A DNA stretch of 64,000 nucleotides from a virus. Lineage: Duplodnaviria; Caudoviricetes. Position numbers and translations under genes: made by a program. This document shows positions 1 through 37,286 of this stretch, in pieces. The notes beneath the pieces were generated by a model. The model had not been told where the DNA came from, ran no database searches, and saw only the letters and a program-made list of their open reading frames with translations. The stretch is from the IMG/VR virus record IMGVR_UViG_3300029305_012082, positions 1 through 64,000 of that record; one strand, 5' to 3'. The stretch's first letter is position 1, and each line of letters begins with the position of its first letter.

Positions 1-1707
1 TTACGAATAGACAAACCGAATAGTAACATCATTCGAGAATTGCAATGACGTAATTTTTCCGCCTGTGGCTTCGATGTTCTTGATAACGGATCGGATGAAC
101 ATTCGAGGTATTTGGGGGTCAATTCCTCGGATGTACTTTTCATAGTCAACAAATCTTTCATTCAGAAGCTTTTCCGCCATAACAAAGTAGCTCGCCTTGC
201 GGAGAAAATCATCTTCTGAAAGTGCAGCTTCCTCGTCGTTCTGTTTAAGTTCGGAAATTCCTTTGTTTGTTTCCTCTAACTCATCCAGCAATTTCTTTCG
301 CTCGATAATATATTCTGCCTCCGACATCGCATCTTCGCCGAACAAGAATATCGACTTCAGCCTATTTAGTGCGATCTCGGTCTTTCTGCGCCTTTCCTCC
401 AGAATATCAAGCTTATTCTCTTGCTTTTCGGTTCCAGCGAATACGTCTTCGGGCTTGAATTCTACTCCAGAAACGGTAGACAAAATCATCTTCTTGAGTT
501 TTACCAAGTCTTCGTCGCATATTGCAACGCCCAAAAAGGGAGAACCTTTCAAAACCTTCTTCGCCAAGACAGGGAGCGGCGTCTTGGGATTTATCTTTTC
601 TCTGCACTGCATAATGTTAGCAATAAAGTTGAAGACAAACGGACCTATTATGATGTCGGAAATGTATTTATTGCCGCAGGATTTATCAAGTCTTCTCTTG
701 TAACAAGAATAAATCGACGGTCTCCATCCGTCCGCTCTGCGGCGATCTAGAGTTGCCGACATATTGTGTCCGCATTCTCCGCAAGTTATTAAGCCAGCGA
801 AGATGTGAATGTTTTTATTCATTCGAGCTGTACCTACCTTTATCCCGCCACGTCGGTTTCTTGTAAGAGAAAGTTGGATTCTCTCGAATCTGGCCTCACT
901 CAGAGCCGGCAAATGGTGGTTCTCTATGACGATCCATTCTGCCTCGTCTCTTTTTGCAACTCCCTTTCCGTCGGAGTGGACATTGTATTTGTAAGATCCA
1001 ATATACCAAACGTTGCGGAGGATCTTGTTTATCGCTACCGGAGACCACTCCAATCCTTGCCGAGTACGATAGCCATTGCTATTCAACCATTTAGCAGTTG
1101 CAAGCAGGGAGTTTGTTTCCTCGTATTTGTCGCACATAGATAAATAAATCCTGTGTTCGTATTGGTTTAAGGTAAAACATTTTTCTTCCGTATCGTAATT
1201 GTATCCATACGGGACTCTTCCGCCGTTCCATTTTCCACTGTCAGCTCTGGAGAGCATAATTGCTGTGACTCTTTCGGCCGTAACTTGCCGTTCCAGCTCA
1301 GCAAATACCAAGATTATTTTCACCATTGCCTCGCCCATGGCTGTACTCGTGTCGAACTGCTCGTTTTTAGATACGAAGGCAACGCCTAAAGATTTCAGTT
1401 CGGCATGCATATTTGCAAAGTCTAAAAGATTTCTGCTTATACGATCGATCTTCCAGACGAGCAAATGTGAGAATTCACCTGTTCTCAGCCTTTCCATCAT
1501 TCTCTGATAGTCAGGCCGATCTGTATTTTTGGCAGAATAGCCGGGATCTACGAAGACTTCGTAATCTGTTATTCCAAGAACAAGATCTGCAAATGCGATC
1601 AGCTCCCGGCGTTGAACCTGAAGGGAGTCCTTGTCAATCTGCCATTGTGTAGAAACACGAGTGTATATTGCCGCCTTCTTTTTCGATAGGCTTCTGGATG
1701 CATCCAC
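1..1707 (-). CDS. Large serine recombinase (phage integrase)
   Basis: YTRVST catalytic Ser motif, KIDRISRN, recombinase domain, CGECG...C zinc ribbon and coiled coil; GTG start after AGGTGG RBS. Confidence 0.95.
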   Translation of the reverse strand: MDASRSLSKKKAAIYTRVSTQWQIDKDSLQVQRRELIAFADLVLGITDYEVFVDPGYSAKNTDRPDYQRMMERLRTGEFSHLLVWKIDRISRNLLDFANMHAELKSLGVAFVSKNEQFDTSTAMGEAMVKIILVFAELERQVTAERVTAIMLSRADSGKWNGGRVPYGYNYDTEEKCFTLNQYEHRIYLSMCDKYEETNSLLATAKWLNSNGYRTRQGLEWSPVAINKILRNVWYIGSYKYNVHSDGKGVAKRDEAEWIVIENHHLPALSEARFERIQLSLTRNRRGGIKVGTARMNKNIHIFAGLITCGECGHNMSATLDRRRADGWRPSIYSCYKRRLDKSCGNKYISDIIIGPFVFNFIANIMQCREKINPKTPLPVLAKKVLKGSPFLGVAICDEDLVKLKKMILSTVSGVEFKPEDVFAGTEKQENKLDILEERRRKTEIALNRLKSIFLFGEDAMSEAEYIIERKKLLDELEETNKGISELKQNDEEAALSEDDFLRKASYFVMAEKLLNERFVDYEKYIRGIDPQIPRMFIRSVIKNIEATGGKITSLQFSNDVTIRFVYS

Positions 1708-3921: not shown

Positions 3922-4654
3922 CAACAAAGCAAGATCTGGATGCTTGTTTTTAAGAAGAGCACTTGCGTTTGTAATTGTTGCAATTGCATTTTCGCTTGTT
4001 ATTGCAGACACAGCAAAAAGCCATGACACAAACACCGAAATGAGCATAGCTTCGCAGTCCGGAAGCGAACAGAATCGGCCCGAGGCAACTGTTGTAGCTG
4101 CGGCTCAGGAAACCCCTGAGGTTGTCGTACATACTGTTTCTGCTGAACTGATCTGTACTGTGAATTATGAAGAAAAGGACGTCTCGACCGGACCTGAACC
4201 ATCCGAACAGGAAGACATAGACACAGAAGCAGAAGATGAGATCCTTTACTACACGGAAGAAGACGTTCTTGCTCTTGCTCAAATGGGAGAAGGAGAAGCC
4301 GGCGGAATTCCTTCCGATATGGAGGTAGCTGCAACGATGTGGAGTGCCTGCAATCGCTTAGACAGCGGAGATCCCTATTATGCTGGGCTTGAGTCCATCA
4401 AGGATATCGTCGCTCAGCCCTACCAGTATCATGGCTACAATCCTGATCGAGTTCCTTCAGAAAGACTTATGGCTCTTGCCAGAGATGTTCTGAGCAGATG
4501 GAATGCAGAAAAAAATGGTGCAACTGATGTGGGGCGTGTGCTTCCCCGCGAGTATATGTTCTTCCACGGAGATGGCTGGCACAATTATTTCACCACAGTT
4601 CCGGGCGGGTATGATGTGTACGATTGGTATCTTGGTTCCCCCTACGAGAGTTGA
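3908..4654 (+). CDS. SleB-like cell wall hydrolase with N-terminal TM/signal segment
   Basis: LAQMGEGEAGG...NRL...IVAQPYQY motifs of the Hydrolase_2 family. Confidence 0.8.
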   Translation: MKRNNNKARSGCLFLRRALAFVIVAIAFSLVIADTAKSHDTNTEMSIASQSGSEQNRPEATVVAAAQETPEVVVHTVSAELICTVNYEEKDVSTGPEPSEQEDIDTEAEDEILYYTEEDVLALAQMGEGEAGGIPSDMEVAATMWSACNRLDSGDPYYAGLESIKDIVAQPYQYHGYNPDRVPSERLMALARDVLSRWNAEKNGATDVGRVLPREYMFFHGDGWHNYFTTVPGGYDVYDWYLGSPYES

Positions 4655-4665
4655 GGAGTAAGCAC

Positions 4666-4917
4666 ATGGATATGCTTGAACAACTTTCAGACATTGTATT
4701 TGCGGTGCAAGACGAAACGAAGTATCCGTTCGACCTTTCTGAAATCTTTCGAGTGATGCAACATACTCTCCGGAAGATCGAATTAAACGGACAAGGCGAT
4801 GGATACATTCCCATCTTGTTTAGAAATGAGCTGCAAGATCTCGTTATGAGACATGAAATCAATAAGAGAGGAAGCGAAAGAACATGTGTAGTCTCTGCAA
4901 TTCCAGCCCTTGTGTAA
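4666..4917 (+). CDS. Hypothetical protein
   Basis: ORF with GAGGAG RBS within the early operon. Confidence 0.6.
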   Translation: MDMLEQLSDIVFAVQDETKYPFDLSEIFRVMQHTLRKIELNGQGDGYIPILFRNELQDLVMRHEINKRGSERTCVVSAIPALV

Positions 4918-11957: not shown

Positions 11958-12735
11958 ATGGAACGGACAAACATAGAATGGGCAGACAGCACATTCAACC
12001 CCGTAACCGGATGCTACAATACATGTGAATACTGTTATGCAAGAAGGATCGCAACTCGCTTCAAAGGGTACGATGCTTCTCCTGAAGGCAACACAGTTCA
12101 GAAAATCGTCGATCTAAATGAACCCCTCATCATTTCATCTAAAGATGGGAATAAGCCTAGAAACGCGGCTTATCCATTTGGCTTCACGCCTACTTTCCAT
12201 CGATATCGGTTAGATCAGTTCAACCGCCTGAAGTTCGGAGAGACGATTTTTATGCTCCATGGGAGATCTATTTGCTCCGTGGATTCCGGACGAATGGATC
12301 GAAGCTGTATTCCGGACTTGTCTGGATTATCCGAAGCACAGGTATCTGTTTCTCACCAAATTCCCAAAGCGGTACTTGGAGTTGGGCGAAGCCAGAAAGC
12401 TTCCCGAAGAAAAAAACTTCTGGTATGGATCTACTGTTACCCGCCCTGACGTCCCATATTTCTACAGCGAGGGACATAACACCTTCCTTTCTATAGAACC
12501 CATGCTTGAGCCTTTTATGGCTTCTGGCGAAGCCTGTAAGCCTCCCAAGACGGATTGGATCATCATGGGAGCTATGACGGGACCCGGAAGTGCTGAACAT
12601 CAGCCTTCTCGCAGTTGGATTGAAGATATGGTTTCTGGTGCGAAAGAATGGGGAACGCCAGTCTTTATGAAGAATAGCTTGAAACCTGTTTGGGGAGAAG
12701 AGCTTATCACAGAATTCCCTTGGGGAAACAAATAG
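11958..12735 (+). pseudogene. Gp37/Gp68 (DUF5131) family protein, frameshifted near 12250
   Basis: IEWADSTFNPVTGC...CEYCYA in one frame; CSMGDLF...FLTK...SIEP...PVFMK in another. Confidence 0.8.
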
Positions 12736-12746
12736 CGAGGTTCAAT

Positions 12747-13088
12747 ATGAGCAGAAACGGGTACTTAGAAAGAAGAAAGAACCAGATATCCAGCTGGAGA
12801 CGCGCCGAAAAAGAGACGTATATCCAGTTTATGACCGATACTCTAATAGATACGCTCAATGACCCAGAGGTCATGGGCAAGGATGTATTCGGCCAAGAAA
12901 GAATCCTTGGTGTTATCCATGGATGGCAGAAAAAGTTCCGCTTCTGGCACCCAGCTTTAGAAAAACGAGATGACACCGATTGGTATCGAAAAAGATTCGA
13001 CGATAAGATACGAGGGATTGTTGGCGATGAGAACTTCACCCCGTTCGAAGATCGTTATGAATGGGCAGGTCTCCTTGACGATTTATAA
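12747..13088 (+). CDS. Hypothetical protein
   Basis: ORF with GAGGT RBS. Confidence 0.65.
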   Translation: MSRNGYLERRKNQISSWRRAEKETYIQFMTDTLIDTLNDPEVMGKDVFGQERILGVIHGWQKKFRFWHPALEKRDDTDWYRKRFDDKIRGIVGDENFTPFEDRYEWAGLLDDL

Positions 13089-13135
13089 TGTCCGTTGAAA
13101 GAACTTAAAAGCGAGGTGAACGGGTCTGCCACAAT

Positions 13136-13618
13136 ATGGAGAATAAAAGATACGATGTTGCTTCTGTCAGAAGTAGGCTCGATGCTTATTTAGCCAAGGA
13201 GGCAGAGATCGACAATCAGATAGAGCGTCTGGAACGACTCGAAACAAAGATGGAAGGCGTAGGTGCTCAGGTCATATCTGACATGCCAAGATCCCACAAT
13301 GCTTCGACAGACCGGTTTGCCGATATGCTTCACAGAAAGTCACTGCTCGATGAGGAAATCAGGACAATGGTCAAGGACCAAAAAACCGAATGGGAAGCAA
13401 TCGAGACCATATTGATGAACGTCGACAATCCTGACGAAAGAGCAGTGATTCGGATGAGGTATTTGGACAGATCGAGTTGGGATGATGTGAACGATATGAT
13501 TTTTGGAGGGAAGAAAGATTTCCTTGATAAAGAAGAATCATATAAGCGGAGAGTATTTAGGCTCCACGGTGCAGCTCTCCTTGATATGGCCAGATACATA
13601 GACGCCACCAACAAATAG
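13136..13618 (+). CDS. ArpU/RinA-like late transcriptional activator
   Basis: ISDMPR...ERAVIRMRY...W...RLHGAAL; at the end of the replication operon. Confidence 0.75.
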   Translation: MENKRYDVASVRSRLDAYLAKEAEIDNQIERLERLETKMEGVGAQVISDMPRSHNASTDRFADMLHRKSLLDEEIRTMVKDQKTEWEAIETILMNVDNPDERAVIRMRYLDRSSWDDVNDMIFGGKKDFLDKEESYKRRVFRLHGAALLDMARYIDATNK

Positions 13619-13645
13619 AATCGAAAACCGCACAGAAATAGATTT

Positions 13646-13671
13646 AGGCAGGCAGTTATGCCTGCCTTTTT
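13646..13671 (+). terminator. Intrinsic terminator
   Basis: AGGCAGGCA-GTTA-TGCCTGCCT followed by a T run. Confidence 0.8.
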
Positions 13672-13723
13672 ATATCATAAACGAAAGCTCTAGAAAAAAT
13701 TTTCAGGAACAGCCAAAAACATA

Positions 13724-13801
13724 TTGACTTTACTGATAGGTGTGCTACGATATAGTCACAAAAAGGATTACCGATCGGTAAGCGAAATTACCGAAAGGAA
13801 A
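13724..13801 (+). promoter_or_regulatory. Promoter of the accessory operon with repressor-type operators
   Basis: TTGACT-16-TACGAT; perfect TTACCGATCGGTAA at 13768-13781; variants at 13730 and 13788. Confidence 0.8.
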
Positions 13802-13826
13802 GTTTTGAAAGGCTGGTTGATCTATA

Positions 13827-14036
13827 ATGACAAGAAAAAGATTTCAGAAGCTCTTCAGATCCGAGATGACCAAGCTTATGGCACATAAAGATGGTGCCGC
13901 TAAGTGCATCAAACACGCAGCAACAAACAGAGCAAGCGTTTGGGGCAAAGAATGGGCTGGGAAAAGCTACCTCGAAGCGTGGACCCTTCTTCGCTCTGCA
14001 TTTACCTACCCCGGCAATGTGCCTCCGGTCAAGTAA
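13827..14036 (+). CDS. Hypothetical protein
   Basis: First ORF after the promoter. Confidence 0.5.
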   Translation: MTRKRFQKLFRSEMTKLMAHKDGAAKCIKHAATNRASVWGKEWAGKSYLEAWTLLRSAFTYPGNVPPVK

Positions 14037-14100
14037 CCACAAGAAACTGCCGTGCGGTGCAACCCGCCCACCTTATGACGGTTAAGGGGAGATGATATAA

Positions 14101-14604
14101 ATGAGCAGAAACATCAGACGAGGAACTACACAGAACCGAATTCGATATATCTGGAAGACAATCAAGGAGATGTACAAGATCTGCGGAGATGACGAAGAGT
14201 TCCGGAATAATTGCGAGTGTTTTTTCTATTCCGAAGCAAGCAGCATCTTCGATCACACCATGTACGAAAAGGTTGTAGATGCAGTAATTGCATGTAACCG
14301 GCACGATCAGGAAGAGGAAAGGCACGAGGCAAAGCTCGTCAAGACCTTTATCGACGATCAATGGGCAGGATATCAAACGATGAAAGAGGTTGTCCGTCTT
14401 CGAAATAAGTTCAATCGTCTTGCCATCGATCTCCAAAAATCGAACCCTGCTGAGCATCGGGTGTTCTGCCACTACGACATCGATTGTTATGGAGAAGTCG
14501 TCGCAGCATGGTTTTACTCCGACGAAACATACTCAGACGAGCGATTCGATCGACTCACCTTGCTGTCCGGTGTTCATATCTGGGCACTCCACGCAAGACA
14601 CTAA
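14101..14604 (+). CDS. Hypothetical protein
   Basis: 167-aa ORF with RBS. Confidence 0.65.
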   Translation: MSRNIRRGTTQNRIRYIWKTIKEMYKICGDDEEFRNNCECFFYSEASSIFDHTMYEKVVDAVIACNRHDQEEERHEAKLVKTFIDDQWAGYQTMKEVVRLRNKFNRLAIDLQKSNPAEHRVFCHYDIDCYGEVVAAWFYSDETYSDERFDRLTLLSGVHIWALHARH

Positions 14605-14622
14605 CAGATTTTGGAGGTTGTT

Positions 14623-14832
14623 ATGAACGAGTATTACATCAGGATTTCCACTTATGGGACAAACACCCCTCATATTGTTGATCTTGCTGCAATCGAAGGG
14701 ATGAACTATTTGGATGCTGAGAATTTCATGTTTCACTGTGAGGCGAAGAACATGGAAGAAGCTGAGAAGATCTACTGGGAAGAATTTAGCCGGCTTGCCT
14801 TTGACATGCAGGCAGAGCGGATGCATCCCTGA
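14623..14832 (+). CDS. Hypothetical protein
   Basis: GGAGGT RBS. Confidence 0.6.
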   Translation: MNEYYIRISTYGTNTPHIVDLAAIEGMNYLDAENFMFHCEAKNMEEAEKIYWEEFSRLAFDMQAERMHP

Positions 14833-14924
14833 TATTACAGAACACCTCAGACAAGGAGGCATTTATGAAAGCAACTTATAGAGAAGGAGCTTGCATTGCA
14901 CATGAACTAAAAGGAGATTGAAAC

Positions 14925-15137
14925 ATGAAAGAAACACCCAAGCTGACCGTTGATCTCACTGACGTCAAAAAGGAACTCGCGAAGCTTGCTCGGCTCCATG
15001 CTGACAAAGTAACCGAAGCAAATCGGATGGCGCAAAGTGACGATACACCGTTTTCCGAGGTGATTAAATATCAGTTTGACGAACTGTGCCATAGTGGTTT
15101 TGTACAAGGGATAATCGAAGCGATGAAATTGCTGTAA
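14925..15137 (+). CDS. Hypothetical protein
   Basis: AAGGAG RBS. Confidence 0.6.
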   Translation: MKETPKLTVDLTDVKKELAKLARLHADKVTEANRMAQSDDTPFSEVIKYQFDELCHSGFVQGIIEAMKLL

Positions 15138-15188
15138 TTAGACCGTAAATCAATACAAATATACTTAGACAAGAAAGGATTTTGCAAA

Positions 15189-15842
15189 ATGGCTATCAAG
15201 AAGACTGAACTCGTTGAAATCACCCCCATCAAGGTCAAGAAGGTTGCGCTGAGAATTGTCGGCGACTCCCCGCTGCTGGTTCATGCGTGGAGTGAAAAGG
15301 ACAAGAAAATGATGCTGGACGCACAGATGGGGAAGGCGAAGGGCAAGAAAAAGGACCCCAAGAACCCTGTTGCAGACTTTATCAACTCCATGTACTGGCT
15401 CGACAACAAGCCCGAAGAGATGACGATGGAGGCTTTTGAAGAGTCCATCCAGAACGGTGCCCGCTTCGGCTTCCCTGTATCTGGTCTCAAGCAGGCTGCT
15501 ATCAGCGCAGCTTACAGAATGGGCTGGGTCAAAGACAAGATGGGCCTGAGAGGCGCATTCTTCATCGAAGCAGACAGGGACGGTATGATTGAGATCAAGG
15601 GCGATGCACCCGAAATGCGGGAAGACATGGTCAAGGTCGGCATGGGCACCGCCGATATTCGCTACAGGGGCGAATTCCGTAATTGGTACGCAGATATTGT
15701 CTTGACCTACAATGAGGCTGGCCAGTACAGCCTGGAGAACATTGTCAATATCATCAACGCTGGCGGCTATGTGTGTGGCATCGGCGAGTGGCGTCCCGAG
15801 AGAGACGGCCAGTACGGCATGTTCCATGTAGATATTGCCTAA
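15189..15842 (+). CDS. Stand-alone Cas7/RAMP-like RNA-binding protein, candidate effector for the adjacent GGY-NN array (VIPR-like)
   Basis: RAMP-like layout: N-terminal LRIVGDSPLLVH, FPVSGLKQA helix, DIRYRGEF, C-terminal Gly-rich loop GGYVCGIGEWRPERDGQYGMF. Confidence 0.75.
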   Translation: MAIKKTELVEITPIKVKKVALRIVGDSPLLVHAWSEKDKKMMLDAQMGKAKGKKKDPKNPVADFINSMYWLDNKPEEMTMEAFEESIQNGARFGFPVSGLKQAAISAAYRMGWVKDKMGLRGAFFIEADRDGMIEIKGDAPEMREDMVKVGMGTADIRYRGEFRNWYADIVLTYNEAGQYSLENIVNIINAGGYVCGIGEWRPERDGQYGMFHVDIA

Positions 15843-15865
15843 CAGCATAAGCAGCTTCCCTACAT

Positions 15866-16076
15866 GGCTTAACAGGCTGGGCTAGGCAAGGTGACGTGAG
15901 TTATGTTGAGTCGAGGCTGGGTGCGGCGCGGTCTAACAGGCGGGGCTGGGTCAGGCGTTGCAAGGCGGGGCGCGATGGGGCAAGGCGAGGTTTAACAGGC
16001 GAGGTGAGGCGTGGCAAGGCGCGGTGAGGCTTGGCGAGGCGAGGCGGGGCAAGGCTAGGTGCCGCCCAACAGGCAA
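15866..16076 (+). ncRNA. Array of GGY-NN pentamers in three AACA-delimited units (candidate guide-RNA array)
   Basis: Units 15875-15934 (12 pentamers), 15939-15993 (11) and 15998-16067 (14); AACA at 15871, 15935, 15994 and 16068; 30 of 37 pentamers start with GGY and the rest differ by one base. Confidence 0.8.
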
Positions 16077-16113
16077 GAAATTATAAACCAACAACGACAA
16101 GGAGAAATCAACT

Positions 16114-16569
16114 ATGGTTTATCAATACAAACCCAGATCGATGATTAAAGCACCTGCACAGGTAGCAGGAGAGATGTGCGAGAGGCTATCTCAGACCGGT
16201 GGCCTTACCCCCAAAAGGCTGGTAGATGCAAACCGTGATGTGAACGCACCTCTCCACAATGAGTTCGAGTGGAATGATGAGATCGCAGCCGAAGCGTACC
16301 GAGAATCGCAGGCGGCGCACATTATCCGGTGCATTGTAATTAAACCGGAAGTCAATGAAGAGACGCCGATGAGAGCATTTGTAAGGGTTACGGAGGCAAC
16401 AAGCGACTACACGCCCATGAAAGTCGTGATGAGCAGTGAGCAGATGATGGAGTCTTTGCTTGTATCTGCGAGAAAGGAAATGGAGACATTCGTCAAAAAG
16501 TACACCGGCGTTCAGGAACTGAACAGAGTGATCGAGAGTATGAACGAAGCGCTCTACATCGCCGGATAA
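16114..16569 (+). CDS. Phage protein downstream of the array (putative accessory factor)
   Basis: LTPKRLVDANR...PLHNEFEWNDEIAAEAYRESQA motif; AAGGAG RBS. Confidence 0.75.
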   Translation: MVYQYKPRSMIKAPAQVAGEMCERLSQTGGLTPKRLVDANRDVNAPLHNEFEWNDEIAAEAYRESQAAHIIRCIVIKPEVNEETPMRAFVRVTEATSDYTPMKVVMSSEQMMESLLVSARKEMETFVKKYTGVQELNRVIESMNEALYIAG

Positions 16570-16683
16570 CTACAGCTTTAATTCTGCGGCTCGTTTCGGA
16601 ATCACATGGGATAAAAGCTATACAAAACGAGCTGCAGTTTTCGCATCATATATGCTCAGCATCGAAAATAAGGAGAAAAACGA

Positions 16684-17016
16684 ATGCAAGCACAATATAT
16701 TAAGGTGAACCTTCCGCTGACAGAAGAAGATTATCAATCCGGTAACGGAGAAGGCGTTTGGGTCATTGTAGATAACAAGACAAAGGCTGACTATTATCAC
16801 GACGCTTATGGACCTGGATTTGTAGGAATGCTGGCCAACGACAGTTTTTACTATCCCGGACTGTGCTGTGGAGACTCTGTCGAGTTCGAAATGCGCGGTG
16901 ACAAACGTCCTGTAGCAGATTATCACAATTTCCTTTGTGGTCGCACAAAACTTACGAAAGAGGGCAAAGCCATTCTCATTGCTGCAATTGCAAGTCAAGG
17001 AGGAAATCCGAAATGA
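16684..17016 (+). CDS. Hypothetical protein
   Basis: AAGGAG RBS. Confidence 0.65.
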   Translation: MQAQYIKVNLPLTEEDYQSGNGEGVWVIVDNKTKADYYHDAYGPGFVGMLANDSFYYPGLCCGDSVEFEMRGDKRPVADYHNFLCGRTKLTKEGKAILIAAIASQGGNPK

Positions 17017-17480
17017 ACGAAGATAATAAATTGACAAAGAAGCTTTCAGAGTTCATCTTTGCGTATGCCGAGATGAATATGAATGCAAGCAAGACTGCCA
17101 TCAGTCTGCGTTGTAGTCCATCCACGGTTACACGGTATATCGAGCAGACTTTGGAGCTTACCGGTTTAGACGTCCGGTATGTATTCGATCTGGTTGAGCT
17201 GCTTGAAATGGCGAGAGATGTATTATATGGCAACGAGGAAACCGAGCAATTCTGTTCTGATTTTAAGAGGGGGACAAGAATGAAAGTAAGAGATTTACTG
17301 AAGAGATTCCGAATGAGCAGTGCTGTTGGCGTTGCAATTCAGGTAGTGCCAAATGGCGAGGAAATTCACCTCACAGAAGCTCAGGTTCGAGACCTTAAAC
17401 CTGCTGAGCTAATGGAAATGACGGTCCAGACTTTTTATGTGCGAGAAGATTTGATGACCGTGTATGCCAAGGAGCGGTAA
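17013..17480 (+). CDS. Hypothetical protein with N-terminal HTH-like segment
   Basis: NMNASKTAISLRCSPSTVTRYI. Confidence 0.55.
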   Translation: MNEDNKLTKKLSEFIFAYAEMNMNASKTAISLRCSPSTVTRYIEQTLELTGLDVRYVFDLVELLEMARDVLYGNEETEQFCSDFKRGTRMKVRDLLKRFRMSSAVGVAIQVVPNGEEIHLTEAQVRDLKPAELMEMTVQTFYVREDLMTVYAKER

Positions 17481-17518
17481 GCCGAAGAAAACTTTTCTCT
17501 GTAATTTCGTATTTTCTA

Positions 17519-17546
17519 TTGACTAGGTTGGTAGGTATGCTACGAT
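17519..17546 (+). promoter_or_regulatory. Promoter TTGACT-16-TACGAT
   Basis: Same architecture as the promoters at 13724, 27027, 33978 and 34649. Confidence 0.7.
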
Positions 17547-17622
17547 AAGTTTGCAAATAAATACAAAACTTTAATAAAACCATCGCTTTTTGATGCAAAT
17601 AGTTTCGAACGGAGGATATGCT

Positions 17623-18069
17623 ATGATCTACTTAACCGATCGTCACGAGATCGCAAAGGCGATCAATTTCGGGAAACATCCAGTCCTGTATCTGAACAGA
17701 GAAAACCACAAGGGTTTTACCAACACAGACTATGCCGTTGGCTGCAGAGTCAGAGTTGCCTGGGATCACAAAGACCCTCGATACGCCGGAATGACCACCC
17801 ACGGCAACCTGTACATCGAAAACGGAAGACTCGCCATCTCTTCGGAGGGAGGCTGCCTCCACGCGGACTTCGGATATCGCGATGTGATCGAGATGCAGGA
17901 AGAAGCCCGAGCCGTCGTCGTACATAAGAGCCAGACAGTTGTCGTTGTGGAAGACTGGCCCAGCAAAAAGGTTTGCACCGTGCGGATGATGAAAGTCTCT
18001 GATTGGATTGATCCTCACTGCATGACAGTTGCCAGACTCGAAGACTTGGAGGAATTCATCAATGAATGA
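17623..18069 (+). CDS. Hypothetical protein
   Basis: GGAGG RBS. Confidence 0.65.
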   Translation: MIYLTDRHEIAKAINFGKHPVLYLNRENHKGFTNTDYAVGCRVRVAWDHKDPRYAGMTTHGNLYIENGRLAISSEGGCLHADFGYRDVIEMQEEARAVVVHKSQTVVVVEDWPSKKVCTVRMMKVSDWIDPHCMTVARLEDLEEFINE

Positions 18070-18364
18070 GCAGGTTTATTTCGCAGGAGGTTATTATGCA
18101 ATCTTCGGCAAAACGGACGAGGTGGAATTCGACATTGTAAGAGGCGGAAGCAGCGACCTTCCGTATCTTACAAAGAATGCGAAAGGTCTTCGCTCCACTT
18201 CCCATCATGCAAATCTGTACCAATTGTCCGAGGATGGAATGACAGCGACAGTTGTAGATATTCGCTGTCCTTCAGTTGGATCTGGTAAACACACTATCGT
18301 TCTCTCTCTTGACCACCAGCAGATCATCAAAGAAGCGATCGCAAGAGAAAACTTTTTCGATTAA
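18062..18364 (+). CDS. Hypothetical protein
   Basis: Translationally coupled ORF. Confidence 0.6.
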   Translation: MNEQVYFAGGYYAIFGKTDEVEFDIVRGGSSDLPYLTKNAKGLRSTSHHANLYQLSEDGMTATVVDIRCPSVGSGKHTIVLSLDHQQIIKEAIARENFFD

Positions 18365-18377
18365 GGAGGATATTCAA

Positions 18378-18977
18378 ATGAACAAGAAGCAAGTCAATAG
18401 CAATGCATGTGGAGGCGAACCGGTCATCGGGTTTATCATGCCTCCTGATTATAGCTCTGATTATTATCGACTCGCAGAGTTTCCAGTGGTGCTAGATCCC
18501 AGCTTCCCTGATATGGTGTTCACAAATGCAATCCAGCCTGTCCCCAGAGAAATTCTCCGGCGCAACACTTACTTTATGGAAGGGGACGAGGGCGATTTTG
18601 TCTTAGTTCAAGAGCCATTCATTCTCAATGAAGAAACAAGACGCAGGGCTGAACACTGGGTACAAAATGCAAATACCCAGCCTGAAGAAATCGTCACAGC
18701 TAGGCAATATCAAATGAATGCAGAGAAGGTCAGCGAAGCCGTTGACGATCGAATTCAACTCTACAGGAAATACGGGAAAGCACACAACGTCCAACGTCAT
18801 CACCTGATCGTCTGTGGTTCTGCTGACCAGACGCATGCGGACGTTGAATTTCGCGATGGTTTTTATTTCTGCAGAAACTGCGGATCGAAGCTCTGCGAAA
18901 AGAAGGAAGAGATCGGGTTTTACTGCAAGTATTGTGGCGGACACATCACAAATCTGAACGAACTGGGAGGTAAGTAA
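18378..18977 (+). CDS. Hypothetical protein with C-terminal zinc ribbon
   Basis: CRNCG...CKYCG. Confidence 0.65.
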   Translation: MNKKQVNSNACGGEPVIGFIMPPDYSSDYYRLAEFPVVLDPSFPDMVFTNAIQPVPREILRRNTYFMEGDEGDFVLVQEPFILNEETRRRAEHWVQNANTQPEEIVTARQYQMNAEKVSEAVDDRIQLYRKYGKAHNVQRHHLIVCGSADQTHADVEFRDGFYFCRNCGSKLCEKKEEIGFYCKYCGGHITNLNELGGK

Positions 18978-35825: not shown

Positions 35826-35900
35826 GTCGTGGTAGATCAGAAGGTAGATCACCGGGAAGGCATAGCCCGACAGTCGCAGGTTCAAGTCCTGCCCACGGCA
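35826..35900 (+). tRNA. Atypical/pseudo tRNA (enlarged CAT-containing loop)
   Basis: Acceptor GTCGTGG/CCACGGC, D-stem GATC, T-arm GCAGG-TTCAAGT-CCTGC; irregular anticodon arm. Confidence 0.6.
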
Positions 35901-36003
35901 CAACTCCCGGAAGCGGGGCTATTTTCTACTCCTTTGTAACTTGACGGCTCGGAAAAGACGAGAAGTGCTGTGTAGCGTGGTTGAGCTACACAGTGCGCCT
36001 TAT

Positions 36004-36088
36004 GGGGCAGTGGCGAAATGAAAACGCTGGGGACGATTTCCTCTAGTGCTGTTGCACCTTGTTGGTTCAAATCCAACCTGCCCCACCA
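36004..36088 (+). tRNA. Atypical class II tRNA-like gene with a shortened anticodon loop
   Basis: GGGGCAG/CTGCCCC-ACCA, T-arm GTTGG-TTCAAAT-CCAAC, variable arm GTGC-TGTT-GCAC. Confidence 0.6.
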
Positions 36089-36188
36089 CCCACGAAAGTG
36101 GGATCTTCCTCTCTTTTTCTTGTTTTGACAGCTCGGAATAGACGGCAATGCCCTGTAGAATTCATTCGCCTCTGCAGGGCAAACATAC

Positions 36189-36264
36189 GCTGCTATAGCT
36201 CAGTCGGTAGAGCAGCTGATTTGTAATCAGCAGGTCGTCGGTTCGAGTCCGACTAGCAGCTCCA
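36189..36264 (+). tRNA. tRNA-Thr(TGT)
   Basis: Canonical cloverleaf, anticodon arm CTGA-TTTGTAA-TCAG, CCA end. Confidence 0.93.
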
Positions 36265-36367
36265 CTGTGGTGTGGTGAACCACAGAGGCTTTCATTTCTC
36301 ATTCTTCTGGCAGCTCGGAAAGACGAGCAGTGCTGGACGATCCTCCTATTCGCCCAGCACATCATAT

Positions 36368-36441
36368 GCCGCAGTAGTTCAATGGCAGAACACCAGCCTT
36401 CCAAGCTGGTTGCGCGGGTTCGATTCCCGTTTGCGGCTCCA
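36368..36441 (+). tRNA. tRNA-Gly(TCC)
   Basis: CCAGC-CTTCCAA-GCTGG anticodon arm, CCA end. Confidence 0.92.
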
Positions 36442-36666
36442 AATCCGAGGTGTACATGGGCCGTTGCCGACATAAGGCAGCGCAAGCCGGTTGCCGCGCT
36501 ACACGATAGGAGAAAACAGCTGGGTCGCTCCCATCCGACAGCCGGACGGAATACAGACCGATAGTACTGTGACACGACGGACAGCGACGCCGAACAGGCC
36601 AGAACGAGAGGCCGGCAGACACGCCGCCAGCTGACTTAGAGAGCAGAAAAGATGCGTGTCCGATAT

Positions 36667-36741
36667 AGGGGTGTCGCCAAGAGGAAAGGCACGGGACTTT
36701 GACTCCCGTATTCGCAGGTTCGATCCCTGCCATCCCTGCCA
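36667..36741 (+). tRNA. tRNA-Gln(TTG)
   Basis: CGGGA-CTTTGAC-TCCCG, CCA end. Confidence 0.92.
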
Positions 36742-36854
36742 AGGACATATATGTCCTTACCAAGAGCCGAAAACAACCTGCTTGCGCGACAACGACTGCG
36801 TACCACGCGGGAACAGTGTAAGCGGGTTCTTTCGGTAATTGCCAACATTGAAAT

Positions 36855-36942
36855 GGGAGCTTCGCCAAGCGGTGAAGGCATCGGTCTTGAAAACCGACAG
36901 GGCAGTAATGTCGCATGGGTTCGAATCCCTTAGCTCCCGCCA
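36855..36942 (+). tRNA. tRNA-Ser(TGA)
   Basis: TCGGT-CTTGAAA-ACCGA, long variable arm, GCCA end. Confidence 0.88.
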
Positions 36943-36967
36943 AAACCAACAGTGATGAAGATTTGAC

Positions 36968-37050
36968 CTCCGCATGAAGGAATGGTAGACTAACTTGTCT
37001 CAAAAACAAGTGCCATCGGCGTCCCGGTTCGAGTCCGGGTGCGGAGACCA
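36968..37050 (+). tRNA. tRNA-Leu(CAA), divergent
   Basis: CTTGT-CTCAAAA-ACAAG, variable arm, ACCA end. Confidence 0.8.
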
Positions 37051-37209
37051 GCCGGTATGCTTCATCTAGACATAGTGTTGGGCGACTGTGACCCGGACTC
37101 TCGGAGTCCTCCTTCCAAAGAAAATCGCAGTCTGATCTTAAAGTGAGGCCGCTTACCCTTGTGGTGGAAAAGTAGCGGGAAAGAACAGAGGCGGGGCTGT
37201 TCATTTCGT

Positions 37210-37286
37210 GGGCCTTTAGCTCAGCGGGTCAGAGCCTCCGGCTCATAACCGGATCGTCCACGGTTCGAATCCGTGAAGGCCCACCA
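37210..37286 (+). tRNA. tRNA with CAT anticodon (Ile2 or Met)
   Basis: TCCGG-CTCATAA-CCGGA; GGGCCTT acceptor resembles Ile2. Confidence 0.88.

What the first reader, a model, noticed from the sequence alone, without database searches (positions are those of the whole stretch)
15875..16067. The variable dinucleotides read like the first two bases of codons (wobble-skipping target code)
Seen, NN strings: unit 1 TG TA AA GA GA AT GA GA TG GC GC CT; unit 2 GG TG CA GT AA GG GC GG AA GA TT; unit 3 GA GA GT AA GC GA TT GA GA GG AA TA GC CC. Inference: if the target is NNx-NNx with one skipped base, unit 3 gives [DE][DE]V[KN]A[DE][FL][DE][DE]G[KN]YAP, unit 2 gives G[CW][HQ]V[KN]GAG[KN][DE][FL] and unit 1 gives [CW]Y[KN][DE][DE][IM][DE][DE][CW]AAL. 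These look protein-like, with the purine-first bias typical of coding DNA. A guide that ignores third codon positions would resist synonymous escape mutations. I saw no matching peptide among this window's proteins, but I only checked by eye.
Basis: inference. Interest (0 to 1): 0.88.

Follow-up and report, generated by a model that had tools for sequence, protein, structure and literature searches.

The report
Phage VIPR guide RNAs, wobble-skipping code

Summary
Window 15873-16074 (+) holds three staggered units. Each has a CAGGC header, 10-12 NNGGY pentamers and a YTAAC junction sharing one base with the next header.

- **System:** the gene upstream (15189-15842) is a Vipr protein. Its profile hits PDB 36pp "SUSP1 Vipr protein" (E 2.9e-12), and its model resembles Cas7/Csm3. 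A partner gene (16114-16569) accompanies it in 68 of 74 related loci.
- **Unit 1:** read as NNx with one skipped base, it matches 65 IMG/VR contigs and 22 bacterial species genomes exactly. Every match lies in frame in a DUF2800 nuclease gene (peptide WYNEEME[ED]CAA). The same dinucleotides in shuffled order gave 0 matches.
- **Unit 2:** it matches 1 viral and 30 metagenome contigs. Of these 31, 29 lie in DUF2188 genes (GWQVKGAGN[DE]).
- **Unit 3:** no credible target was found.
- **Skip rule:** among 157 guides from related loci, only skip 1 gave real non-array targets. The skipped phase was the most variable codon phase for 10 of 10 guides.

This is the VIPR "1-nt skip rule" (bioRxiv 10.64898/2026.04.26.720920). 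The locus is a new member of a known kind. Earlier notes of this scan report VIPR arrays in at least 15 other genomes.

The parts
15189..15842 (+). vipr gene: 217-aa Vipr protein (minimal RAMP/Cas7-like), phrog_4652
   Evidence: A profile of 38 homologues hits PDB 36pp 'SUSP1 Vipr protein' at E 2.9e-12. The thumb Arg and G-loop residues R138, D177, W178 and R179 of SUSP1 align with R160, E200, W201 and R202 here. R160, W201 and R202 are invariant in the clade and E200 is nearly so. The AF2 model has pLDDT 83, and its top Foldseek hits are Csm3/Cas7, type VII Cas7 and Cas7-11.
15873..15937 (+). vrRNA unit 1: header CAGGC (15873-15877), 11 guide pentamers (15878-15932), junction CTAAC (15933-15937). 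Guide NN string: TG TA AA GA GA AT GA GA TG GC GC
   Evidence: Searches give the sequence. With a 1-nt skip it has 65 exact IMG/VR matches and 22 genome matches, all in DUF2800 genes in frame 0. Four central pentamers have degenerate GG (GACGT GAGTT ATGTT GAGTC), yet their NN still match the target.
15937..15996 (+). vrRNA unit 2: header CAGGC (15937-15941), 10 guide pentamers (15942-15991), junction TTAAC (15992-15996). Guide NN string: GG TG CA GT AA GG GC GG AA GA
   Evidence: Searches give the parse. Exact 1-nt-skip matches: 1 in IMG/VR (L143, a DUF2188/phrog_3220 gene) and 30 in metagenome contigs, 28 of them in DUF2188 genes in frame 0.
15996..16070 (+). vrRNA unit 3: header CAGGC (15996-16000), 12 guide pentamers (16001-16060), degenerate GCCGC (16061-16065), junction CCAAC (16066-16070). 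Guide NN string: GA GA GT AA GC GA TT GA GA GG AA TA (GC). Target unresolved
   Evidence: Searches give the parse. There are no exact matches with 13 or 12 NN in IMG/VR, metagenomes or GTDB genomes. None was found at 3 or fewer mismatches in 30 unit-1 target phages. The first 10 NN hit two unrelated ORFs, which is chance level.
16070..16074 (+). terminal CAGGC header with no guide after it; end of the array
   Evidence: CAACAGGC at 16067 is followed by AT-rich leader sequence and the start of the next gene.
16114..16569 (+). vap-like accessory gene (151 aa, phrog_15946), function unknown
   Evidence: tblastn finds a homologue next to vipr in 68 of 74 related loci, either as vipr-array-vap or as vipr-vap-array. 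It has no Pfam, NCBIfam, PADLOC or PDB match. The AF2 model has pLDDT of only 62. Its Atlas neighbours are viral hypothetical proteins.

Best explanation
This is a VIPR (Viral Interference Programmable Repeat) locus of a roughly 105-kb provirus: vipr, a staggered array of three vrRNAs, and a vap-like gene.

**Mechanism taken from the published SUSP1 and P. fulva work, not tested here:**

- One Vipr protomer binds each pentamer.
- Adjacent protomers lock away the GGY bases and present the NN dinucleotides.
- The NN pair with double-stranded DNA while every third target base is flipped out.
- The resulting protein-held R-loop triplex blocks transcription.

**Shown here by computation:**

- Unit 1 spells WYNEEME[ED]CAA of the DUF2800 PD-(D/E)XK nuclease. 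That gene heads the replication module of a widespread family of temperate phages of gut Clostridia.
- Unit 2 spells GWQVKGAGN[DE], the core motif of small phage-borne DUF2188 genes.
- The skipped base is the codon wobble base.
- The phage's own genome has neither gene family and no self-match.

**Inferred:** the prophage uses the guides to silence competing phages in its host. Reading only codon positions 1 and 2 of conserved motifs lets one guide cover many diverged variants and resist synonymous escape.
For: - **Vipr identity:** sequence match to PDB 36pp with the GGY-contacting residues conserved, and a Cas7-like fold.
- **Array:** pentamer array with hypervariable NN, CAGGC headers and 1-nt overlaps across the clade. 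This fits the 'staggered vrRNA arrays' of fig. S18.
- **Partner gene:** conserved in 68 of 74 loci.
- **Unit 1:** 65 + 22 exact skip-1 matches against 0 for the shuffled order. All lie in frame 0 of DUF2800. They form 21 distinct 32-mers that vary only at skipped bases, while flanks fall to 67% identity.
- **Unit 2:** 29 of 31 exact matches lie in DUF2188, in frame.
- **Clade test:** of 157 guides, those matching at 90% or more numbered 0 at skip 0, 12 at skip 1 (6 perfect), 0 at skip 2, and 1 when shuffled. The skip-3 hits are mostly homologous guide units in other arrays.
- **Convergence:** guides of nine other loci hit the same target phages, in DUF2800, DNA polymerase A and other genes of those phages.
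- **Wobble phase:** skip phase equals the most variable phase for 10 of 10 guides.
- **No self-targeting:**
- **DNA, not mRNA:** units 1 and 2 carry the sense-strand sequence, so they cannot pair with the mRNA. Other clade guides match the antisense strand. The papers likewise report targets on both DNA strands.
Against: - There are no expression or processing data. The vrRNA boundaries are inferred from sequence alone.
- Unit 3 has no target.
- The 87 unit-1 hits are homologous copies of one gene, so they count as one evolutionary target, not 87 events.
- Most unit-2 hits come from metagenome contigs whose habitat I did not establish, so the actual DUF2188 target in this phage's habitat is not pinned down.
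- Skips 0, 2 and 3 were tested only against 0.55-1.1 Mb of local sequence, not whole collections.
- The host of this provirus is unknown. The Vipr clade was not found in 401 sampled genomes of one Clostridia order.
- Repression rather than cleavage is assumed by analogy, because Vap's function is unknown.
Confidence: 0.9

Rival explanations
1. The tract is a protein-sequestering or ring-wrapping RNA. This would resemble the 11 triplets with 2-nt spacers bound by TRAP, or the GGA repeats of CsrB. The GGY triplets would be the functional part and the NN mere spacers without information.
For: The 5-nt period of a constant triplet plus a 2-nt spacer, in units of 10-14, resembles TRAP sites (own knowledge). 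This was my first reading.
Against: The spacers of units 1 and 2 carry highly specific information, giving exact in-frame matches to conserved genes against 0 for the shuffled order. The neighbouring protein is a Vipr/Cas7-like RAMP, not a TRAP or CsrA relative.
Confidence: 0.02
2. The gapped matches are chance products of codon-like, GA-rich dinucleotide strings searched in very large databases.
For: Unit 3's first ten NN do give two unrelated in-frame hits. A codon-aware null expects about 0.7 per 1e10 codons for that pattern. Two of the 30 unit-2 metagenome hits are unrelated proteins.
Against: For unit 1 the null expects about 0.004 per 1e10 codons, and the shuffled order gave 0 hits against 65. 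The hits fall in a single gene family at a single motif, always in frame. Only skip 1 is enriched among 157 clade guides.
Confidence: 0.02
3. The guides act on RNA (mRNA of the rival phage), as type III CRISPR Cas7 filaments do, rather than on DNA.
For: Vipr's closest solved folds are RNA-targeting Csm3 and Cas7-11. The structure paper reports that the filament can pair with ssRNA.
Against: Units 1 and 2 have the same sense as the target mRNAs, so they can pair only with the template DNA strand. Clade guides hit both strands. The papers show dsDNA binding and note that ssRNA gives mostly incomplete filaments.
Confidence: 0.04
4. It is a VIPR system, but here the outcome is target destruction or another Vap-dependent activity rather than plain transcriptional repression.
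For: The paper describes VIPR types whose vap genes are nucleases or helicases. The Vap here has no recognisable domain, so its activity is open.
Against: No nuclease or helicase motif was detected in the 151-aa Vap. The model is mostly helical. The paper says the nuclease-bearing types are enriched in cellular defence islands, whereas this locus is in a provirus.
Confidence: 0.1

Closest known systems
VIPR systems with staggered vrRNA arrays (bioRxiv 10.64898/2026.04.26.720920, fig. S18 legend)
   Same: - Phage-borne vipr plus vap two-gene locus.
- vrRNAs made of YNNGG/GGY-NN pentamers.
- Consecutive vrRNAs overlap by 1 nt, so units are 5k+4 nt.
- NN read with a 1-nt skip that falls on the codon wobble base.
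- Targets are genes of other phages.
- No self-targeting.
   Different: - Which of the seven published types this clade belongs to could not be determined, because the supplementary tables are not held.
- In this phage the junction pentamer is YTAAC rather than the NNGGC usual in relatives.
- The natural targets found here are specific to this work: a DUF2800 nuclease of gut Clostridia phages and DUF2188.
Type II VIPR of Escherichia phage SUSP1 and a Pseudomonas fulva prophage (same preprint; structures in 10.64898/2026.04.26.720927, PDB 36pp; biology in 10.64898/2026.10.15.759431)
   Same: The Vipr C-terminal half aligns at E 2.9e-12, with the thumb Arg and the G-loop (D/E)WR conserved. The pentamer code is the same.
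   Different: - SUSP1 vrRNAs are about 100 nt, separate, and capped by a roughly 40-nt 3' tail with a pseudoknot. Here units abut with a 1-nt overlap and leave no room for a tail.
- Only the C-terminal ~75 residues are alignable by sequence.
- SUSP1 targets a satellite, whereas this locus targets replication and accessory genes of full-size phages.
Class 1 CRISPR Cas7 backbone filaments (Csm3/Cmr4, type VII Cas7, Cas7-11)
   Same: They share the RAMP fold (Foldseek E about 1e-5, TM about 0.5). Both use thumb-interrupted guide-target pairing on a helical filament.
   Different: - This locus has no CRISPR repeats or spacers, and no other cas gene lies beside vipr and vap.
- The CRISPR guide is contiguous with one flipped base in six. 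Here three of every five guide bases are sequestered and one of every three target bases is skipped.

Membership tests
VIPR system | Vipr protein: minimal RAMP with RRM core, glycine-rich loop and thumb | tested here: met
   The profile hits the SUSP1 Vipr chain 36pp_D at E 2.9e-12. The AF2 model (pLDDT 83) matches Csm3/Cas7 chains at E 1e-5 to 1e-3.
VIPR system | Residues that hold the GGY bases (SUSP1 R138, D177, W178, R179) | tested here: met
   They align with R160, E200, W201 and R202. R160, W201 and R202 are invariant and E200 is at least 90% conserved in 38 homologues. D to E is a conservative change.
VIPR system | vrRNA of about 9-16 YNNGG repeats with conserved GGY and hypervariable NN | tested here: met
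   The three units have 11, 10 and 12-13 pentamers. Clade-wide, G is 93% and 88% at positions 3 and 4, and Y is 88% at position 5. NN is unconstrained, and runs hold 8-16 repeats.
VIPR system | Adjacent vipr-accessory (vap) gene | tested here: met
   A homologue of 16114-16569 lies beside vipr in 68 of 74 loci. Homology to the published vap1-6 could not be tested because no sequences are held.
VIPR system | NN specify targets by the 1-nt skip rule | tested here: met
   Units 1 and 2 give exact skip-1 matches in collections, while the shuffled control gives 0. Skip 1 is the only rule enriched among 157 clade guides. Unit 3 remains unresolved.
VIPR system | Skipped base coincides with the codon wobble position | tested here: met
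   All DUF2800 and DUF2188 hits are in frame 0. Variation among the 87 sites occurs only at skipped bases. The phase test gave 10 of 10.
VIPR system | No self-targeting of the source genome | tested here: met
   The best skip-1 scores in the 104.7-kb genome are 17/22, under 15/20 (15/20 is the best in the whole local database) and 19/26, within the shuffled range. No DUF2800 or DUF2188 gene is present.
VIPR system | vrRNAs are expressed, processed and bound by Vipr | not testable with these tools
No promoter or terminator consensus lies inside 15843-16113, which suggests co-transcription with vipr.
Type II VIPR (SUSP1 type) | Separate vrRNAs of about 100 nt, each with a conserved 3' tail or pseudoknot | tested here: not met
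   Units abut with a 1-nt overlap and only an 8-nt constant junction (TAACAGGC), so there is no space for a roughly 40-nt tail. The locus fits the staggered architecture instead.
CRISPR-Cas (class 1) | CRISPR repeat-spacer array and a multi-gene cas operon | tested here: not met
   Only the pentamer tract is repetitive in 14000-18000. The eight ORFs scanned around the locus (12259-18977) gave no Cas family in Pfam. PADLOC finds no defence-system model in Vipr or Vap.
TRAP-like ring-protein RNA sites | Informative triplets with non-informative spacers, and a TRAP-family binding protein | tested here: not met
   The spacers carry target information. The partner protein is a RAMP.

The most novel reading that the evidence does not exclude
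This Vipr clade of gut-phage VIPR systems may wage family-level, motif-directed interference. Guides from at least ten different loci converge on the replication module of one widespread family of temperate phages of gut Clostridia: DUF2800 nuclease, DNA polymerase A and other genes of those phages. Each guide spells a highly conserved peptide, so a single guide covers variants whose flanks are only about 67-80% identical in DNA. One further guide aims at a rival's vipr G-loop. The tail-less staggered arrays with CAGGC headers, and a guide that works through four pentamers lacking GG, would then point to processing and repeat-recognition rules looser than those solved for SUSP1.
Probability: 0.45. 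Interest if true: 0.45.

Novelty: new member of a known kind. Interest (0 to 1): 0.35.

Why it matters
This locus adds three things.

- **Independent confirmation.** It is a purely computational confirmation of the rule in a Vipr clade that shares only about 75 alignable residues with the studied E. coli phage protein.
- **Natural targets.** It gives concrete natural targets in gut Clostridia phages.
- **A measure of the benefit.** One 11-dinucleotide guide matches 21 different 32-mers at 87 sites. A contiguous guide copying the commonest variant would match 26 of the 87.

These points could help map phage-phage competition networks in the gut microbiome.

Tried and rejected
- **TRAP-like or protein-sponge reading.** This was my first idea. 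I dropped it once targets were found.
- **Catalogue and similarity searches.** Rfam at gathering and permissive thresholds gave no family. blastn of the locus against GenBank phages gave no match.
- **Unit 3.** Exact scans with 13 and 12 NN in IMG/VR, metagenomes and GTDB genomes gave nothing. A search at 3 or fewer mismatches in 30 full records of the unit-1 target phages gave nothing. The first 10 NN gave two unrelated ORFs at chance level.
- **Unit 2 in the unit-1 target phages.** No match at 3 or fewer mismatches, so the two guides aim at different elements.
- **Apparent self-match.** A 17/22 unit-1 score at window 2923 lies in an unrelated region and is within the shuffled range.
- **Host identification.** No Vipr-clade homologue was found in 5 target-bearing genomes or in 401 sampled genomes of one Clostridia order.
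- **Vap.** There are no Pfam, NCBIfam, PADLOC or PDB sequence matches. The AF2 model was too weak (pLDDT 62) to justify a fold search.
- **Closed or unavailable resources.** The look-up of sequencing runs and the look-up of encoding contigs were closed, so expression, processing sites and near-identical sister loci could not be examined. The paper's supplementary tables are not held, so the VIPR type could not be assigned.

Full report
**1. What is in the sequence**

Between the stop of a 217-aa gene (15189-15842, +) and the start of a 151-aa gene (16114-16569, +) lies a G-rich tract with a strict 5-nt period. It parses into three units.

- Each unit opens with CAGGC, at 15873, 15937 and 15996.
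- Each continues with 11, 10 and 12 pentamers of the form NNGGY.
- Each ends in a junction pentamer (CTAAC, TTAAC, CCAAC). The last C of that pentamer is also the first base of the next CAGGC. This is why the units measure 64, 59 and 74 nt, each 5k+4.
- A last CAGGC (16070-16074) closes the array.

However, the final dinucleotide of each string (CT, TT, CC) sits in the junction pentamer and, as shown below, is not read. Rfam has no family for the tract. The window is part of a 104,687-bp IMG/VR provirus record.

**2. It is a conserved element, not a local oddity**

Searching IMG/VR with the two flanking proteins returned 74 related loci. Nearly all carry NNGGY tracts on the coding strand next to the homologue of the 217-aa gene. 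Across 173 distinct parsed units:

| Feature | Value |
|---|---|
| G at pentamer positions 3 / 4 | 93% / 88% |
| C or T at position 5 | 88% |
| Positions 1-2 | unconstrained |
| Units starting with CAGGC | 114 |
| Consecutive units overlapping by exactly 1 nt | 76 cases |
| Start-to-start distances equal to 4 mod 5 | 114 of 140 |
| Usual pentamers per unit | 9-14 |

The 151-aa gene accompanies the 217-aa gene in 68 of 74 loci. The order is either gene-array-gene or gene-gene-array.

**3. Identification**

[quoted passage not shown] It describes VIPR systems as follows:

- a phage-borne minimal RAMP (Vipr) and an accessory gene (vap);
- vrRNAs of 9-16 YNNGG repeats;
- NN dinucleotides that pair with dsDNA under a "1 nt skip rule", with the skipped base usually the codon wobble base;
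- "staggered arrays" in which vrRNAs overlap by 1 nt (fig. S18 legend).

Companion preprints give the structural mechanism (10.64898/2026.04.26.720927) and the biology in E. coli (10.64898/2026.10.15.759431). A fourth recovers VIPR arrays by language model (10.64898/2026.10.21.760802).

I tested membership directly.

- A profile of 38 homologues of the 217-aa protein hits one PDB sequence only, "SUSP1 Vipr protein" 36pp, at E 2.9e-12.
- In that alignment, the SUSP1 residues reported to hold the two guanines and the pyrimidine (R138, D177, W178, R179) align with R160, E200, W201 and R202. R160, W201 and R202 are invariant in the clade and E200 is nearly so.
- The AlphaFold model (pLDDT 83.4) finds Csm3/Cas7, type VII Cas7 and Cas7-11 as best folds (E 1e-5 to 1e-3, TM about 0.45-0.5).

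**4.

*No self-match.* In the phage's own genome plus the related loci, no gap size gave anything above shuffled controls. The only exception was the trivial skip-3 self-match of the array.

*Unit 1.* Written NNx, unit 1 is TG.TA.AA.GA.GA.AT.GA.GA.TG.GC.GC.

- It has 65 exact matches in IMG/VR and 22 in GTDB species-representative genomes. The genome record titles name mostly Clostridia (Oscillospiraceae, Ruminococcus, Lachnospiraceae, Youxingia), plus Erysipelotrichaceae and Merdibacter and one Bacteroidaceae MAG.
- The same eleven dinucleotides in shuffled order gave 0 matches in IMG/VR.
- A codon-aware null built from 252,018 local codons expects 0.004 matches per 1e10 codons.
- Every hit lies in a roughly 376-427-aa ORF, in frame 0, encoding I-E-N-L-S-WYNEEME[ED]CAA-G-Y. 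The ORF is a DUF2800 / PD-(D/E)XK nuclease (E 1.9e-156).
- The 87 sites comprise 21 different 32-mers that differ only at skipped bases. Entropy inside the site is 0, 0 and 0.51 bits at codon positions 1, 2 and 3.
- The surrounding 183-nt windows fall to 67% pairwise identity, with a median of 80%.
- The commonest 32-mer accounts for 26 of 87 sites, so a contiguous guide would cover under a third of what the gapped guide covers.
The codon before it does not match the header CA.

*Unit 2.* Written NNx, unit 2 is GG.TG.CA.GT.AA.GG.GC.GG.AA.GA.

- It has one exact IMG/VR match and 30 in metagenome contigs.
- The viral hit and 28 of the 30 metagenome hits lie in frame 0 of small ORFs reading NQHVT.HP.GGWQVKGAGN[DE][KR]AT. 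These are DUF2188 genes (E 4e-24 and 1.5e-27).
- In L143 this gene is phrog_3220. It sits between an ArpU-like late regulator and the small terminase.
- The two remaining hits are unrelated proteins, about what the null predicts for 20 specified bases.

*Unit 3.* No target emerged.

- There are no exact matches with 13 or 12 dinucleotides in any collection.
- None appears at 3 or fewer mismatches in 30 full records of the unit-1 target phages.
- The first ten dinucleotides hit two unrelated acidic stretches, one in a Mu-F-like protein and one in an unknown protein. Each scores 22/24 overall.
- The null expects about 0.7 such hits per 1e10 codons, so I treat them as chance.
- In the preprint only about half of the SUSP1-clade vrRNAs had identifiable targets, so one orphan of three is unremarkable.

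**5. The rule in the whole clade**

I parsed 157 guides of 8-16 dinucleotides from the related loci. I scored them against 1.1 Mb of local sequence with the arrays masked.

| Rule | Guides with at least 90% match |
|---|---|
| skip 0 | 0 |
| skip 1 | 12 (6 perfect) |
| skip 2 | 0 |
| skip 3 | 8 |
| shuffled, skip 1 | 1 |

- The skip-3 hits are almost all homologous guide units in degenerate, unmasked parts of other arrays.
- Guides from nine other loci land on the same phages that unit 1 targets. They hit DUF2800 on both strands and a 650-aa family-A DNA polymerase (peptides SYGPKFVEN, GKIAELALG, DIYCASASQMF). They also hit two other ORFs of those phages that I did not identify.
- In L088 the target module reads DUF2800, Enc34-type ssDNA-binding protein, Pol A, DUF7768, VapE-like primase, SNF2 helicase, sigma-like regulator and small terminase.
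- One guide (L074/L075) matches the G-loop coding sequence VGVGEWRPEK of another locus's vipr at 20/22. [quoted passage not shown]
- In an ORF-free test I measured per-phase entropy in the unselected 45-nt flanks of the hits. The skip phase was the most variable phase for 10 of 10 guides. The chance of that is (1/3)^10.

**6. Mechanism and what remains inferred**

*Shown here:*

- the system's identity;
- the code, with skip 1 falling on the wobble base;
- the targets of two guides;
- the absence of self-targets and of DUF2800 and DUF2188 genes in the phage itself.

Units 1 and 2 carry the sense-strand sequence, so they can pair only with template-strand DNA and not with mRNA. Other clade guides match the antisense strand. 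This fits DNA targeting on either strand.

*Taken from the papers and not tested here:*

- one protomer binds per pentamer;
- the GGY bases are sequestered;
- an R-loop triplex forms;
- transcription is repressed.

*Inferred:*

- The prophage silences superinfecting or co-resident phages.
- The array is co-transcribed with vipr and vap. No promoter or terminator consensus lies in 15843-16113; the nearest promoter-like sites are at 13724 and 15086, after a terminator at 13646-13667.

Two details go slightly beyond the published description. Four consecutive pentamers of unit 1 lack GG (GACGT GAGTT ATGTT GAGTC), yet their dinucleotides match the target perfectly. Also, the junction pentamer here is YTAAC instead of the clade's usual NNGGC.

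*Weak ecological support.* Two metagenome samples (3300045988 and 3300029584) contain both VIPR-clade contigs and unit-1 target contigs.

**7. Limits**

- The host is unknown.
- Vap's function is unknown.
- The VIPR type could not be assigned.

**8. Verdict**

It coincides with a mechanism already published in 2026. The locus is a new member of a known kind. Earlier notes of this scan report VIPR arrays in at least 15 other genomes.

Noticed in passing
L074:4205-4264 and L075:4205-4264 (guide); L012:2345-2376 (match): A guide of one VIPR locus matches, at 20/22 with skip 1, the G-loop coding sequence (VGVGEWRPEK) of the vipr gene of a different locus. This looks like an anti-VIPR guide of the kind the preprints report.
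   Followed up: partly
L057:3878-3927; also L055:3895, L050:4121, L053:3800, L052:3770: Several diverged VIPR loci keep the same guide (GG AA AT GC GA TT GC CT GG TA, or a shorter form). It spells GKIAELALG of the target phages' family-A DNA polymerase. Guides can therefore be inherited or shared, not only turned over.
   Followed up: partly
L058-L075 versus L016-L057: There are two locus layouts. Closer relatives have vipr-array-vap, as in this window. More distant ones (about 44% Vipr identity) have vipr-vap-array.
   Followed up: partly
L048:1033-1298 and 4562-4735; L062:2857-2961; L066:2852-2961; L076:2115-2945: Some relatives carry extra pentamer arrays upstream of vipr or further downstream. 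In L062 and L066 the array begins right after a terminator-like GC hairpin with a T-run and ends in a T-run before a ribosome-binding site.
   Followed up: no
window 35826-37283: There is a cluster of seven tRNA genes on the + strand (Rfam tRNA, 40-77 bits).
   Followed up: no
window 13136-13618 and 13646-13756: An ArpU/phrog_36-type late transcriptional regulator gene is followed by a strong terminator hairpin (13646-13667) and promoter-like sites at 13724 and 13729. This is a possible start of the transcript that carries vipr, the array and vap.
   Followed up: no
L012:4451-4500 (+) and 1290-1614 (-): A 10-nt periodic GGACAGGT/CGCC repeat was picked up by my pentamer scan. It lies on both strands of one region and is probably a coding pentapeptide-type repeat, not a vrRNA array.
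   Followed up: no
L143:2818-3048: The DUF2188 (phrog_3220) gene hit by unit 2 sits alone on the opposite strand between the late regulator and the small terminase of its phage. That is a moron-like position, and the family's function is unknown.
   Followed up: partly
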